From: Yuukianura sp. NJ FZ-2021
Lineage: Eukaryota
DNA length: 64,000 bases
NCBI GenBank assembly: GCA_046563655.1
Contig: CM102287.1
Location: 6,448,001-6,512,000 of the forward strand
Direction of reading: 5' to 3'
A model generated the notes under the pieces. It saw only the letters and a list, made by a program, of their open reading frames with translations, did no database searches and was not told where the DNA came from. This document shows positions 8,575 to 13,489 of the stretch, one piece after another. Position 1 is the first letter of the stretch, and the number at the start of each line of letters is the position of its first letter. The position numbers were made by a program, and so were the translations under genes.

Positions 8575-11500
8575 TTAGTAGAAGAATTCTTTTTCAAACC
8601 AATCCCAATTTGTCTTTCGAATAACGAAACGTCGAAACTCATCGTAGGCGATGATGAATAACGCAAATGGAATCGCACAAATCCAAATCTCCGGCCTGGA
8701 TTAAACAAAATAGATTCTGAAGTAATAGAAAACTGAAATTCATGATATTGCTGTTTTCTAATTGTAACTTACCTGACAGGTACCATTCCCAGCGCTATGC
8801 TCATTCCAGGCGTGTAAGACAAAAAGCATGCCAGTAAAATCATGAAAGCAATTGCAAAAAACACAATCGGGTTGCTGAAATAAGTCATGGAATGGAAAAG
8901 TGAATTTTCAATGGTTTCAGTTTTTTAAAAAAATAATTTCGACTTACTCAAAAAATTTGCTAAAAACCGACACTCTTCTGGTCTTCGAAATGATGACATT
9001 TCCGCATTGACAAACAACGACAGAAACAAAGAATCCAGTCCAACACGTATGCTCCAGCTCTTTCCGGGCGGCGAATGTCTGTAGAAATGTGTCAGGTCAA
9101 AGGTCAACTACGAGCGAAGCATTTGGTTTATAATGTATTTACATCATTTTACACTTCTTACCCATTCTTGACCGTATGAATCTTCCAAATCATTTATAGC
9201 AGCGTCGTACCACTTGTGGCTGATATCAATCAAATACCAAGGATGGAATCCATTTTGTCCCATTGCCACACAGTAACCAAAAAATCCAGCAAACGCCTAT
9301 GGCAATTCACCAAAACAATATTTTAGACTTCATTTTGAAAATGTTAACTTTATATGCTTTAGGCACTGACCTCGATTATTCCCAACTGGCCGTAGGCATA
9401 GGATATTAGTTCCTTCGTTACTAAATTGTCATTTTCCGGATTTCGAGGTGGTTTCCGCATGATGTCGCCTTCGGGTGGTTCATAAGACAGAGAAATTGTG
9501 GGCATAATATCCGTTCCAAGACAGATCTAAGATTGGAAGCAGACAAAATCATTTTGAATCTTTTGTCTTTCTAAGAATTCAAAAATTTACTTTTCTTTAA
9601 TACCATTAGCATAGGAATTGTTCCCATTGGAAGTGGAATTCGGAGTGTGATGAAAGCCAAGAAAGGTGTCAAGAAAGCAGTGTTTGCACACAACAGGTAG
9701 CGAATACACTTTTTCAAGTTGTCAAAAATGAGACGCCCCTCTTCAATCCCACTGACGATTGTGGCGAAGTTGTCGTCCAATAGAATAAGATCCGCAGCTT
9801 GCTTGGAAACGTCAGAGCCTAAAAACCATAAATTGAACATGCCGGGTTTGGTCGCTCGTTCAAAAGACTAACATATTAGTTAAACTTAACCTATCAATTT
9901 AATCGATTAAAATTCGCTGGCTCACCGGAGATGCCCATTGCGATTCCAATGTCAGCTCGTTTCAGTGCAGGGGAATCGTTTACACCGTCGCCAGTGACGG
10001 CTACAACGTACCCAAGACGCTGAAATCCTTCAACGATAATCAATTTCTGCTGCGGTGATACGCGCGCAAATACAATTTCTTTGTGATTTCTGAAAAATTA
10101 AAAGACATAATTCAGAAATACGATCGCTGCTTTTTCAATTTTGATTTGGCATCGTACGTTAAAAATTCGTCCAGTTCTTGAGAACTCAAGTCCGAAAGTT
10201 CTTCCCCGGAACAAACCGCAGCGGCAGGACGCATTCGTTCATCGGTCTTTAAATCCCATAAGTTAGCTCCTGTTCTCTTTGCAATTTCTTCCACAGTTTC
10301 GTTTCCTGTGATTTCAAGAAATAATTTTTCATTATTTGGTTAATTAAGTTGGAAGTTTTCTTTGGAATTATTTCCACCATGAGAGATGATTCCAACAGAG
10401 CGAGCAATTGCTTTAGCAGTGATAGGATGATCTCCAGTGACCATAACCACACGAATTCCAGCAGTTCGACATGTTTGAACAGCATCGGCCACTCCCGGTC
10501 GGGGTGGATCAATCATCGAAATTATTCCGGTAAATCGAAGCCCCAAATCCAAAATCCCGTCGGTATTCTCCGAATTGAATTCGAAATCAGCTGGAAACGT
10601 GTCATTCGGAAGTCTCATGTCAGCAAAACCTAAAGAATTTAGAGGTATCACAAGAATTCAAAAATTTCGGCCATTTTGATTTCAGTATTTTGATTTTAGT
10701 TACCGATGACACGCTCTCCCAAAGAGCCCAAATTCTCATACACCGAAACGAACTTCGACCTCAAATGATCCGTCAATTCAATTTCTTTGTCATCAATTAC
10801 AATTGTTTTGCAGTATTTTATCACGCGCTCCGGTGCGCCCTAAGGTGAAAAAACGTTTTCAGTATTTTTATAGAAAACTTTAGAACATGAGAACATGACA
10901 CGAAACAAGCCAGTACCTTGAACGCCAAGAGAAAGCTGGATCCTGGGGTGGGGTCTTTGCGCATGTCATGAATGGAGTATTGATACTTGTTTGAAGAATT
11001 GAATGGAACTTCAAACACTTTCTTGAATTGGTCTTGGAAGTCATGAACATTTGGAAAATGCAATTCCATAGCACGCAATATTGCAGTTTCGGAAGCATCT
11101 CCATTAATTTTCCTTTTAAAAACATTAACCATAACAATAAAAATACAATCAAGACCAAACATTTTCATTCACATTTATAGAAGATATGACAGTCTTGAAG
11201 TGTACCTCTGTTTCAGCGGTACTTCGCTTGTCTCCATGAACGTGGCACGGCTACAAAGCCTACCCACTGTCGTAAGGGCCTTGAAGCCAACGCTTTCTTT
11301 TAGTTTACTATCGACGTGTGCAGATTCAATGATGTCGCCGCCAGCCCACAAGTGAGCAACCGTCATTATGTTTTGGGTAAGTGTACCTGAGCCAAAAATC
11401 AAAGCACTTTTTTTTTAATTTCAACATTCAGCGTAGTATCAATGTATCATTAGGTAACGTGCATTTTTTTAATTTGCTTGTGAGCTGTTTTTTGTTAAAA

Positions 11501-13489
11501 AAAAACCTCATCTTTTACACGAAATTTCCAAAATTCACATTGTTTTTTCTCCAATTTAAAAAAAAAACTATAAATTCTGGGGGTCTGTATCCGCCATTTT
11601 TAAAGTTTTGTGAAAAAGTTAATCCTATAACCAAATACGTTTAATTACAGGTCGGTTCGTACCTGTTTTGTCGGAGCAAATTACGGAGCAAGAGCCCATC
11701 GTTTCCACAGCATGAAGATGTTTCACTAGGCAGTTTTTGTTCGTCATACGTTTCGCAGTCAAGGCCAGAATTACCGTAAATGTGACCAATAAACCTAAGA
11801 ATAATATTGAGATACATTGGGCAAAAACCAATTGTACAAACTAATAATATTGAATTCAATAATCGTAATCCACGCAATTAAGCACACCGCCAAAACCAAT
11901 AATTGTAAGACAAACATTATTGGAACAGACCTTCCGGGACGTTCGCTACGATAATTCCGATTAAGAAAATCACAGCGTCGATCCATACGTAGCCCATTAA
12001 CAAAGAAACGGCAAAGAATACGAGACCGTTAATAACCACGACGATGCTGATGACTGAAACGTATAAAGTTCAAATACAACTTTTCTGCAACTGAAAATTA
12101 TTGCAGTTCAACAATCTTTAGTTTTGAAAATGCAGCCTTACCAGTAACAAAATGCGTCACTTCTTTTGATAACGGAGTTTCACTAGCGTCTAATCCACTT
12201 GCCAATCCAGCAATTCTTCCAATGAAAGTATTGTCGCCAACGGATACTACAATTCCCTTAGCAGTCCCTTCCAGTGCATTTGATGAGAAGAAAGCCAAAT
12301 TCTTCGTCTCCATTGGATTGTCGTCTGTACAAATATTTCCACGGGATTGCGGTTCAGATTCGCCAGTTAGCGAGGAGTTGTCAACCTAAAGTGACACATT
12401 CATTTTTCCAAATGAATTCAAATGAATTCAAAAATTCCAAATCAATTTGAACATTTCAGGCAGTTAAACCTTGAATCCCTGGGATTGGATGATCCGAATA
12501 TCCGCTGGCAATTGGTCACCAAATTTCACTTCAATGATGTCCCCAACGACCAAGTCTTTGCTATTTACTGTCTCCAAATTGCCATTCCGCAGAGCCAGAG
12601 CGTAGCTAGGGACCATTTTGGCAAATGACTCCATCACTTTGTTACTCGAATATTCTTGGTAGAAAGTGAAAATTCCAAGGAGCATCACGAGTGCTCCCAG
12701 GACCACGCCCATGTACAGCTAAAATTTTTGGAATACATTAAATCATATTTCCAAAAACATTATAATAAATATTTTTCTAAACATCGTTGCTTGTTTTTTT
12801 TTTTTACATTGTCCGTAGGTGCGTTGTCCATTTGACAAAATTGGACGATGTAAGCGATGAAACTTAGCGTTGATCCAGCCCATAACAGAAGTTGAAATCC
12901 TCCAGTCAGCGTTTTCAAAAACGTTAACCACAGAGGTTCCTTGTCTGGAGGCGTCAGCTCGTTTTTTCCATATTTGACCAAATTTGCTTTTCGCCTTTCA
13001 TCGTCCAGGCCCTGGAATGAAATGAGGATTTAGCTGCCATTTTAGTTGGTGAATTTATTGTAACGAGCTTCTAGAATCTGCTTGAAATTTGTAGAAGACA
13101 TGCTAACCTATTTGTGATAAAAGTAAAACCATTACCCTGTCAGGATTTGTGCCTAAGCGGTGGTAAAGACTCTCCAGTGGGATTTGATGGTAGTCGATTT
13201 CCAGTTCCTTTTTCAAATAAGATATGGACTTTCTCGCCACATTTTCGTTCGTTCCTACGTTCACTTCCGTGACCGTAAGTTCACTGATGATGCTTTCGTC
13301 TCCATTGATTGAGTGCTTAGAGTACTTTCGACCTGCCTTCCACACTGTATTATGAACTTCATCAATTCTGACGGAAGATGACCTTCGACCGAACGCTGGT
13401 CCATCAGTCTTGATTTCATCTTGCCAGGAAATTTTACGCGCTCGATTATGCTTCCCACCGTCACCTTCTTCGGAATTGATAGATGACAT
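8575..13489 (-). CDS. Divergent Na+/K+-ATPase alpha-like (P2C) P-type ATPase, intact multi-exon gene
   Basis: Exons 13489-13136, 13011-12808, 12718-12470, 12385-12142, 12053-11931, 11794-11663, 11386-11206, 11112-10917, 10839-10704, 10629-10378, 10305-10158, 10089-9926, 9818-9604, 9526-9371, 9296-9162, 9078-8948, 8874-8773, 8695-8575 splice in frame. Motifs: [95 protein letters not shown]-terminus KEFFY. Confidence 0.93.

What the first reader, a model, noticed from the sequence alone, without database searches (positions are those of the whole stretch)
8575..12053. Catalytically intact Na,K-ATPase-type pump whose transmembrane ion-binding sites have been rebuilt
Seen: the spliced gene is uninterrupted and keeps TGES, DKTGT, KGAPE, TGD, GDGVND, TM4 PEG (E327) and the beta-subunit contact SYGQ. 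The membrane helices differ from the canonical alpha-1 sequence (recalled; pig/sheep numbering). TM5 reads [14 protein letters not shown] versus YTLTSNIPEITPFL, giving T774C, S775A, E779F. TM6 reads ICLGTD versus IDLGTD, giving D804C with D808 kept. TM7 reads GIIEA versus GMIQA, giving Q854E. TM8 reads QCGNV versus QWADL, giving D926N. TM9 reads AIAFMILL versus GLFEETAL, losing E953/E954. The C-terminus is KEFFY versus KETYY. Established: E327, S775, N776, E779, D804 and D808 form sites I/II, and Y771, T774, Q923, D926 and E954 form Na site III. Inference: four of the six key carboxylates are gone, with no Lys substitution of the H,K-ATPase or brine-shrimp type, so 3Na/2K pumping is unlikely. 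It may be a single-site pump, a pump for a different substrate, or an ATP-cycling scaffold.
Basis: partly seen in the sequence, partly recalled or inferred. Interest (0 to 1): 0.78.

Follow-up and report, generated by a model that had tools for sequence, protein, structure and literature searches.

The report
Springtail pump paralogue with stripped sites
An intact copy of the animal sodium-potassium pump gene, from a springtail-like animal, has lost most of the charged residues that normally hold the ions, as have related copies in other springtails, so it probably handles ions in a different and still untested way.

Summary
On the minus strand lies an 18-exon, 1080-residue P2C (Na,K-ATPase alpha-type) gene (13489..8575; the finding's range omits the first four exons). 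All 17 introns are GT-AG and all catalytic motifs are intact. Offsets to pig alpha-1 structures (3wgu/7d91) confirm every substitution: T774C, S775A, E779F, D804C, Q854E, D926N, E953F, E954M. E327, Y771, N776, T807, D808 and Q923 are kept.

It is not a one-off. The gene sits in a well-supported group of divergent alpha paralogues whose named members all come from springtails (Orchesella, Folsomia). Its subgroup shares S775A, a non-acidic 804, Q854E and D926N. E779 is lost separately as F, T or N. E953/E954 are lost only here and in one environmental relative.

Fungi and unicellular holozoans reached a similar C804/E854/N926 pattern independently (AU test rejects common origin). Across pumps, Q854E tends to accompany D926N, so that charge may have moved rather than vanished.

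Variants in two DNA studies are mostly non-coding or synonymous, arguing against a dead gene. No RNA data were available, and transport is untested.

Best reading: a selected pump with a reduced, probably single, cation or proton site. No paper on this group turned up in my searches.

The parts
13136..13489 (-). Exon 1 (118 codons). Putative ATG at 13489-13487. N-terminal extension with no Pfam match; its last ~30 residues align to alpha-subunit N-termini.
   Evidence: The start codon is inferred and has no RNA support.
12808..13011 (-). Exon 2, Cation_ATPase_N, TM1.
   Evidence: AG/GT, PF00690, E 3e-10.
12470..12718 (-). Exon 3, TM2 and start of the actuator domain.
   Evidence: PF00122, E 3.5e-12.
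12142..12385 (-). Exon 4, actuator domain with TGES (12367-12356). Lies outside the finding's stated range.
   Evidence: PF00122, E 1.4e-12.
11931..12053 (-). Exon 5, TM3-TM4. The E327 codon is 11934-11932 (kept), in PEGL.
11663..11794 (-). Exon 6, end of TM4 to DKTG. The phosphorylated Asp (pig D369) codon is 11672-11670.
11206..11386 (-). Exon 7, start of the nucleotide-binding domain.
10917..11112 (-). Exon 8, nucleotide-binding domain.
   Evidence: PF13246, E 3.4e-12.
10704..10839 (-). Exon 9, with KGAPE spanning the exon 8/9 junction.
10378..10629 (-). Exon 10, P domain with the TGD motif.
   Evidence: PF00702, E 3.8e-9.
10158..10305 (-). Exon 11, P-domain linker.
9926..10089 (-). Exon 12, TGDGVND (9995-9975).
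9604..9818 (-). Exon 13, TM5. Codons: Y771 9699-9697 (kept), T774C 9690-9688, S775A 9687-9685, N776 9684-9682 (kept), E779F 9675-9673.
9371..9526 (-). Exon 14, TM6 and start of TM7. Codons: D804C 9523-9521, T807 9514-9512, D808 9511-9509 (both kept), Q854E 9373-9371.
   Evidence: PF00689, E 4.9e-11.
9162..9296 (-). Exon 15, TM7 and the ectoloop with SYGQ (9179-9168).
8948..9078 (-). Exon 16, TM8. Codons: Q923 9009-9007 (kept), D926N 9000-8998.
8773..8874 (-). Exon 17, TM9. Codons: E953F 8846-8844, E954M 8843-8841.
8575..8695 (-). Exon 18, TM10 and the C-terminus KEFFY. Stop codon at 8577-8575.

Best explanation
This is a functional, selectively maintained alpha-subunit paralogue of the Na,K-ATPase (P2C) family. 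It belongs to a group of divergent paralogues whose named members all come from springtails.

Shown:
- The gene is whole, with an intact ATP-hydrolysis and phosphorylation core and the beta-subunit contact motif.
- The lineage first lost S775 and D804, and changed D926 to N alongside Q854E.
- It then lost E779 repeatedly, and in this sub-lineage also lost E953/E954.

Inferred:
- The canonical sites II and III can no longer form, so 3Na/2K exchange is not possible.
- What remains is one pocket built from the residues invariant in clade A: D808 and E854 as charges, N776, Q923, N926, Y771 and T807 as neutral ligands, and the TM4 gate residue E327.
- The enzyme therefore most likely still runs the E1/E2 phospho-cycle, carrying one small cation or proton per half-cycle. 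That would be a low-stoichiometry, probably electroneutral pump, functionally nearer to the single-site H,K-ATPases or PMCA/SPCA-type pumps than to the sodium pump.
- The ion is unknown.
For: - Intact gene: 17 of 17 introns GT-AG, no internal stop, all catalytic motifs present. Pfam N-terminal, E1-E2, Cation_ATPase, Hydrolase and C-terminal domains are found exon by exon.
- Splice junctions of exons 10-18 agree without gaps with P0013, a contiguous 409-aa environmental ORF (408 shared ungapped columns, 72% identity).
- Site states were verified against pig alpha-1 numbering.
- Clade: the window protein plus P0013 (support 99/94) is sister to Folsomia alpha-B plus Orchesella A (100/99). All 8 divergent paralogues (6 named springtail proteins, the window protein and environmental P0013) form one group (98/100) inside the metazoan pumps.
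- In the four full-length clade-A proteins, E327, Y771, L772, A775, N776, T807, D808, E854, Q923 and N926 are invariant, while 774, 779, 804, 953 and 954 vary.
- E779 is F here and in P0005, T in Folsomia alpha-B, P0015 and P0019, and N in P0011. That pattern fits a site II already out of use.
- Constraint: of the 40 listed variants (80 exist) from two DNA studies, 28 fall in 1958 non-coding bases and 12 in 3243 coding bases. Of the 12 coding variants, 10 are synonymous, and none hits a site codon.
- The window's changes at 16 otherwise invariant positions are mostly conservative.
- Five acidic residues (E327, E779, D804, D808, D926) are stated to form the three sites (10.1101/106724, passages read). 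Three of them are gone here.
- The 'E327 + D808 only' state recurs in 4 of 152 rows: the window protein, Folsomia alpha-B, Orchesella C and a sponge protein.
Against: - There is no expression evidence. No RNA run was listed, and no genome is held in which to look for a beta subunit or a canonical alpha.
- There are no transport or ATPase data for any member of the group.
- The window lineage evolves faster than its nearest relative P0013: 52 against 15 unique changes with Orchesella as outgroup (p 6e-6), 40 against 24 with a canonical pump (p 0.05), and 36 against 23 with Folsomia (p 0.09). That could mean relaxed constraint.
- The polymorphism count rests on only the 40 best-supported of 80 variants, taken from contigs rather than reads.
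- The proposed D808/E854 pocket is inferred from conservation alone. I could not measure any distance in a structure.
- The E854/N926 coupling is not significant once relatedness is allowed for (median p 0.125).
- Position 804 is C, V or T within clade A, so it is unlikely to be a ligand.
Confidence: 0.55

Rival explanations
1. It is a non-transporting ATPase or a scaffold. The protein keeps the fold, the beta-subunit contact and perhaps ATP cycling, but works through protein contacts such as junction assembly or signalling, not by moving ions.
For: - Three of the five core carboxylates are gone, and the canonical sites degrade step by step within the clade.
- Precedent: pump-independent roles have been proposed for the divergent nematode paralogue CATP-1 (PMC11631496, passages read, citing Ruaud and Bessereau 2007).
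- A pump-independent junctional role of the fly alpha subunit is recalled, not checked here.
Against: - All catalytic motifs, and E327, N776, D808 and Q923, are invariant in the four full-length clade-A proteins. A pure scaffold would not need them.
- In the same CATP-1 paper, a phosphorylation-site mutant had strong phenotypes, so even that precedent is disputed.
Confidence: 0.2
2. It is a gene on its way to decay. A redundant duplicate under relaxed selection is losing its ion sites but has not yet acquired a stop codon.
For: - The window branch is faster than P0013.
- Two further site losses (E779F, E953F/E954M) are confined to this sub-lineage.
- There is no RNA evidence (the blank itself is not evidence either way).
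Against: - A 3243-nt frame is open across 18 exons with perfect splice sites.
- 10 of 12 listed coding variants are synonymous, and variant density is about four times lower in exons than in non-coding sequence.
- F779 with the same TM5 is present in a 96%-identical environmental relative (P0005).
- The clade persists across at least three springtail genera.
Confidence: 0.1
3. It is still a Na/K exchanger using compensating ligands. E854 replaces D926, backbone carbonyls and water replace D804 and E779, and the stoichiometry is merely lowered (for example 2Na/1K or 1Na/1K), as in the brine-shrimp alpha2KK pump.
For: - E854 co-occurs with N926 across pumps.
- Ouabain-contact residues Q111, D121 and N122 and the C-terminal aromatic pair are kept (these residue roles are recalled).
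- A reduced-stoichiometry natural variant has a solved structure (8k1l, listed).
Against: - D804 is described as shared by sites I and II. Its replacement together with S775A and E779F leaves no acidic ligand for site II except E327.
- Mutagenesis showing that D804 substitutions abolish K occlusion is recalled, not checked.
Confidence: 0.1
4. It is a pump for a different, softer substrate such as Zn, Cd or Cu. This would use the cysteines that line the pocket in this protein (C774, C804, and the two Cys flanking Q923).
For: Four Cys lie at or next to site positions in the window protein. Springtail metal tolerance is recalled only.
Against: These Cys are not conserved within the clade. Position 774 is C or A, 804 is C, V or T, and the Cys at 924 is unique to the window. 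The TM4 motif is the P2-type PEGL, not a metal-pump motif.
Confidence: 0.05

Closest known systems
Predicted alpha paralogues of springtails: Orchesella dallaii P0021, O. cincta P0023, Folsomia candida 'alpha-B' P0022. These carry automatic annotation only and are uncharacterised.
   Same: Same clade (100/99 support). Identity is 62%, 62% and 56% over the full length. They share L772, S775A, a non-acidic 804, Q854E, D926N and an intact catalytic core. Folsomia alpha-B has also lost E779.
   Different: Orchesella keeps E779, and all three keep E954. The window protein (with P0005 for TM5 and P0013 for TM9) goes further, with E779F and E953F/E954M, and has a faster branch.
Canonical Na,K-ATPase alpha-1 (pig; PDB 3wgu, 7d91)
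   Same: Same fold family, domain order, catalytic motifs, PEGL gate and SYGQ beta contact. The alignment has no net length change from TM4 to the C-terminus. Identity to animal pumps is 52-54%.
   Different: Three of the five site carboxylates are missing, plus S775 and E953/E954. There is an extra carboxylate at 854.
Gastric and non-gastric H,K-ATPases (PDB 5ylu, 7x20) and brine-shrimp alpha2KK (8k1l)
   Same: These are P2C pumps with reduced stoichiometry. They are the nearest functional analogy for a P2C enzyme that binds fewer ions.
   Different: They reduce stoichiometry by placing a Lys in the site (recalled; one H,K-type row shows K775). The window protein has no Lys and removes the carboxylates instead.
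Fungal and unicellular-holozoan P2C-like group (Racocetra, Thoreauomyces, Spinellus, Mylnosiga, Chromosphaera; P0303, P0365, P0381, P0358, P0333)
   Same: The same states occur at 772 (mostly L), 774 (mostly A), 804 (C), 854 (mostly E) and 926 (N), with D808 and Q923 kept.
   Different: About 40% identity. The group lies far away on the tree, and joint monophyly with the springtail group is rejected (delta lnL 120.6, p-AU 9e-5). These proteins keep E779 and have G775/S776. I know of no functional data for them.
C. elegans CATP-1
   Same: A divergent alpha-like paralogue for which pump-independent roles have been proposed.
   Different: I did not retrieve its sequence, so neither its site residues nor its relationship to this group was tested.

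Membership tests
P-type ATPase, subfamily P2C (Na,K/H,K-ATPase alpha) | Catalytic motifs: DKTGT phosphorylation site, TGES, KGAPE, TGD, TGDGVND | tested here: met
P-type ATPase, subfamily P2C (Na,K/H,K-ATPase alpha) | Domain order Cation_ATPase_N, E1-E2_ATPase, Cation_ATPase/Hydrolase, Cation_ATPase_C | tested here: met
   Exon-wise Pfam hits. Four of the ten exons scanned gave no hit.
P-type ATPase, subfamily P2C (Na,K/H,K-ATPase alpha) | Phylogenetic placement among metazoan alpha subunits | tested here: met
   The springtail group plus canonical metazoan pumps form one side of a branch, SH-aLRT 100.
P-type ATPase, subfamily P2C (Na,K/H,K-ATPase alpha) | Beta-subunit contact motif SYGQ in the TM7-TM8 loop | tested here: met
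   Actual beta binding was not tested.
Canonical Na,K-ATPase (3Na/2K sodium pump) | Five site carboxylates E327, E779, D804, D808, D926 | tested here: not met
   Only E327 and D808 remain.
Canonical Na,K-ATPase (3Na/2K sodium pump) | Neutral ligands S775, N776, Y771, Q923 and the site-III helper E954 | tested here: not met
   N776, Y771 and Q923 are kept. S775A and E954M are changed.
Canonical Na,K-ATPase (3Na/2K sodium pump) | Na- and K-dependent ATPase with 3:2 electrogenic transport | not testable with these tools
   Needs expression and electrophysiology.
H,K-ATPase / alpha2KK type reduced-stoichiometry pumps | Lys inserted into the site (position 775, or 324/776) | tested here: not met
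   A775, N776 and N324. That these positions define the types is recalled.
Springtail divergent paralogue clade A (defined in this report) | L772, A775, non-acidic 804, E854 and N926, with E327, N776, D808 and Q923 kept; monophyly with Orchesella A and Folsomia alpha-B | tested here: met

The most novel reading that the evidence does not exclude
P2C pumps have a second, recurrent design. The C/V804, E854, N926 state, which lacks the shared site I/II aspartate, arose independently in springtails and in fungi and unicellular holozoans. It may mark a distinct transport class: a single-site pump whose charge sits on TM6 D808 and TM7 E854, built around the region that is site I/III in the sodium pump. 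The window gene would be its most stripped-down natural form, showing that E779 and E954 are dispensable for that mode.
Probability: 0.3. Interest if true: 0.75.

Novelty: new variant of a known kind. Interest (0 to 1): 0.55.

Why it matters
The sodium pump's ion sites are among the best-studied and most conserved in biology. Natural, selected enzymes that dispense with D804, E779 and D926 act as ready-made experiments on which residues are needed for phospho-cycling and which for ion choice and stoichiometry.

A springtail-wide family of such paralogues, and a convergent family in fungi and holozoans, would give pump physiologists new test proteins. It would also raise the question of what these soil animals use them for, for example ion uptake through the ventral tube, gut or excretory transport, or junctions.

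The practical caution is that automatic annotation calls all of them 'sodium/potassium-transporting ATPase'. For this group that name is probably wrong in the literal sense.

Tried and rejected
- Whole genome: none is held. I could not look for a canonical alpha, beta subunits or paralogues in the same organism.
- RNA: no RNA holder was listed, so the exons rest on splice signals and homology only.
0 of 79 fetched loci carried the clade-A TM5 motif. No orthologue DNA was obtained, so no dN/dS was run.
- Large tree with the site-heterogeneous model: it did not finish in two runs. It was replaced by FastTree and by LG+G4 IQ-TREE on 25 and 31 rows.
- Relatedness-corrected test of E854 with N926: same direction in about 4.9 pairs, opposite in 0.2, no difference in 8.9 of 14 pairs, median p 0.125. 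It is underpowered, so I do not claim co-evolution as shown.
- Horizontal transfer from fungi as the source of the shared site states: rejected by the tree and the AU test. The gene also has 17 spliceosomal introns.
- Alternative or mutually exclusive TM exons: none found in the window.
- ESM Atlas look-up of Folsomia alpha-B: uninformative.
- Cluster look-ups gave no organism names for the environmental fragments.
- Earlier scan notes: nothing relevant.
- Literature: the searches found no paper on these springtail paralogues or on D804C/E779-less natural P2C pumps. The 2003 survey of worm and fly alpha-like genes that I recall was not in the library and was not read. Supplements were not consulted.
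- Structure prediction was not run. The spliced protein cannot be submitted, and the tool returns no coordinates from which site distances could be measured.

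
Full report
**What is there.** Reading the minus strand of 8400-13600 and the open frames gives an 18-exon gene, which I assembled by coordinates.
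- The ATG is at 13489 and the stop at 8577-8575.
- All 17 introns are GT..AG and 68-276 nt long.
- The CDS is 3243 nt and the protein 1080 residues, with no internal stop.

The finding's start is exact. Its end (12053) is the first base of exon 5, so exons 1-4, which include TGES, lie outside the stated range.

Exon-wise Pfam scans find Cation_ATPase_N, E1-E2_ATPase, Cation_ATPase, Hydrolase and Cation_ATPase_C in the expected order. TGES, DKTGT, KGAPE, TGD, TGDGVND, PEGL and SYGQ are all present.

The window holds only this one pump gene and no spare TM exons. tblastn with a canonical insect pump, a springtail paralogue and the window's own segments gives one hit per segment at E <= 3e-7, and nothing better than E 0.003 elsewhere.

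Contigs from two independent DNA studies reproduce the locus.

**The substitutions are real.** Single exons were searched against all PDB chains. The ungapped ranges against the 1016-residue pig alpha-1 chains (3wgu_A, 7d91_A) fix the numbering at a constant offset of 64.

| State | Positions |
|---|---|
| Kept | E327, Y771, N776, T807, D808, Q923 |
| Changed | T774C, S775A, E779F, D804C, Q854E, D926N, E953F, E954M |

The TM9 match is weak for pig alpha-1 (E 0.11) but ungapped, and it is better for alpha-4 (E 0.001).

A preprint whose passages I read states that E327, E779, D804, D808 and D926 form the three sites (10.1101/106724). Three of those five are uncharged here. There is no Lys at 775 or 776, and N324 is kept.

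**It belongs to a family.** The TM5 exon finds 7302 homologues among 7346 candidates.
- The closest named full-length proteins are from springtails: Orchesella dallaii, O. cincta and Folsomia candida 'alpha-B'.
- The spliced protein is 62%, 62% and 56% identical to them, against 52-54% to canonical animal pumps.
- The exact TM5 motif of the window occurs in 1 of the 120 listed proteins, a 173-residue environmental fragment that is 96% identical (P0005).

A careful LG+G4 tree of 25 rows gives the following. Support values are ultrafast bootstrap / SH-aLRT.
- The window protein groups with P0013, a contiguous 409-residue environmental ORF (99/94).
- That pair is sister to Folsomia alpha-B plus Orchesella A (clade A, 100/99).
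- Orchesella paralogue 'C' joins next.
- Group 'B' (Folsomia P0028, O. dallaii P0177) joins last.
- All eight rows (six named springtail proteins, the window protein and P0013) form one group (98/100) inside the metazoan pumps.

FastTree on 75 rows and a 31-row tree agree.

A neighbouring WTAP gene has the springtail Allacma as its best named hit (56%). Three of the six best hits are springtails. This fits a springtail-like host but does not prove it.

**How the sites changed.** I took site residues from an alignment of 172 rows: the window protein, 21 named proteins and the 150 best cluster representatives out of 96,034 hits.
- Invariant in the four full-length clade-A proteins: E327, Y771, L772, A775, N776, T807, D808, E854, Q923, N926.
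- Variable in them: 774 (C/A), 779 (F/E/T), 804 (C/V), 953 and 954.
- Among the fragments, 779 is also N and 804 is also T.
- P0013 keeps E779 but shares the window's hydrophobic pair at 953/954.

This suggests an order of events:
1. Loss of S775 and D804, together with the 854/926 change, at the base of clade A.
2. Repeated, independent loss of E779.
3. Loss of E953/E954 in the window's sub-lineage.

Repeated loss of E779 after D804 had gone is what one expects if the canonical site II was already out of use.

Among the 152 rows with all five core positions aligned, 12 have two or fewer acidic residues. Four keep exactly E327 and D808: the window protein, Folsomia alpha-B, Orchesella C and a sponge protein. 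So the window's state is rare but not unique, and one publicly annotated protein is nearly as stripped.

**A moved charge and a convergence.**
- Across 156 rows, positions 854/926 read Q/D in 51, E/N in 36, E/D in 4 and Q/N in 7 (raw odds ratio 8.9).
- Allowing for relatedness, the two traits go the same way in about 4.9 independent pairs and the opposite way in 0.2, with 8.9 of 14 pairs uninformative (median p 0.125). This is suggestive only.
- If the coupling is real, D926N with Q854E is a relocation of the carboxylate from TM8 to TM7, not a loss.
- Passages of PMC8237684 place alpha-3 Gln851 in TM7, describe it as conserved among vertebrate alpha subunits, and report that Q851R is pathogenic. 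That Gln851 corresponds to pig Q854 is my recalled numbering.
- A group of proteins from fungi, a choanoflagellate and an ichthyosporean (names) shows a similar pattern: mostly L772, A774 and E854, with C804 and N926. It lies far from the springtail group.
- Forcing the two groups together costs 120.6 log-likelihood units (p-AU 9e-5). I named the groups after seeing the first tree.
- C804 needs at least 6 changes on the 75-row tree.

The same solution has therefore been reached more than once.

**Is it alive?**
- No RNA run was listed, and no genome is held.
- Of the 80 differences seen in contigs of two DNA studies, 40 were shown. Of these, 28 lie in 1958 non-coding bases and 12 in 3243 coding bases.
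- Of the 12 coding differences, 10 are synonymous. The other two are F1061L and S489N. None touches a site codon.
- The C-terminal 408 columns align without gaps to the contiguous ORF P0013. That supports eight splice junctions by homology.
- Against this, the window lineage has changed faster than P0013: 52 against 15 unique changes with the Orchesella outgroup (p 6e-6), 40 against 24 with a canonical outgroup (p 0.05), and 36 against 23 with Folsomia (p 0.09).
- It has 16 changes at positions invariant in the six other rows, against 7 in P0013. Most of them are conservative.

I read this as continued purifying selection with some relaxation or adaptation.

**Mechanism.**

*Shown:* an intact catalytic engine, loss of the canonical ligands of sites II and III, and a conserved residual set.

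*Inferred:* the enzyme still cycles through phosphorylation, and it binds at most one small cation or proton. The binding pocket would centre on D808 and E854, with N776, Q923, N926, Y771 and T807 as neutral ligands and E327 as the TM4 gate. It would then work more like the single-site P2 pumps than like the sodium pump.

Rivals:
- a non-transporting scaffold; the CATP-1 precedent is itself disputed (PMC11631496, passages);
- early decay;
- a low-stoichiometry Na/K pump with compensating ligands;
- a soft-metal pump, which is weak because the pocket cysteines are not conserved.

**Novelty.** My searches found no paper on these springtail paralogues or on natural P2C pumps lacking D804. The proteins exist in public databases under automatic names. 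Divergent alpha-like paralogues in worms and flies are known. PMC6267510 (passage) lists the fly alpha-like CG3701 and JYalpha. I could not retrieve those sequences to compare site residues.

I rate the finding a new variant of a known kind. It is of moderate to good interest, mainly for the clade-wide and convergent pattern, not for this single gene.

Noticed in passing
window 2910-4245 (+) and 5956-6498 (-): Neighbouring genes: ORFs with Tudor domain hits (E 3e-9 and 9e-5) and a WTAP/fl(2)d homologue (PF17098, E 5e-45). The best named hit of the WTAP gene is the springtail Allacma fusca at 56%.
   Followed up: partly
proteins P0028, P0177 (group B) and P0243 (group C): Springtails carry further divergent alpha paralogues. 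Group B has S775D with D926N but keeps D804 and E779, which may be another relocated charge. Group C has T774A, S775D, E779Q, D804V, Q854E and D926N on a very long branch. I could not establish whether springtails also have a fully canonical alpha.
   Followed up: partly
proteins P0303, P0365, P0381, P0358, P0333 and about six more cluster representatives: A fungal, choanoflagellate and ichthyosporean P2C-like group shares a recurring site pattern: L772, A774, G775, S776, E779, C804, D808, E854, N926. Position 327 varies (E, D, N or C). I know of no functional data for this group.
   Followed up: partly
site table: Other natural site variants among animal pumps: Hydra P0031 (S775C, D804S, Q854E), sponge Ephydatia P0297 (E779K, D804C, Q854E, D926N), ostracod Darwinula P0003 (S775K, D926N) and caddisfly Arctopsyche P0207 (N776K).
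   Followed up: no
environmental fragments P0005, P0008-P0020 (alignment A1): In most relatives one open frame runs across the window's exon 12/13 and 13/14 junctions but stops shortly after the TM6-TM7 loop, where the window has no intron. Intron positions therefore differ within the clade. P0013 is open across eight junctions, so it is either cDNA-derived or intron-poor.
   Followed up: no
window 14713-14787 (-): A weak tblastn match of the window's own TM10 segment (48% over 25 residues, E 0.003), about 1.2 kb upstream of the gene. Probably a chance hydrophobic match.
   Followed up: no
window 11795-11930 and 8696-8772 (introns 5 and 17): The differences between the window and the DNA-run contigs cluster strongly in these two introns, including small insertions and deletions. 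This suggests divergent haplotypes or strains.
   Followed up: no
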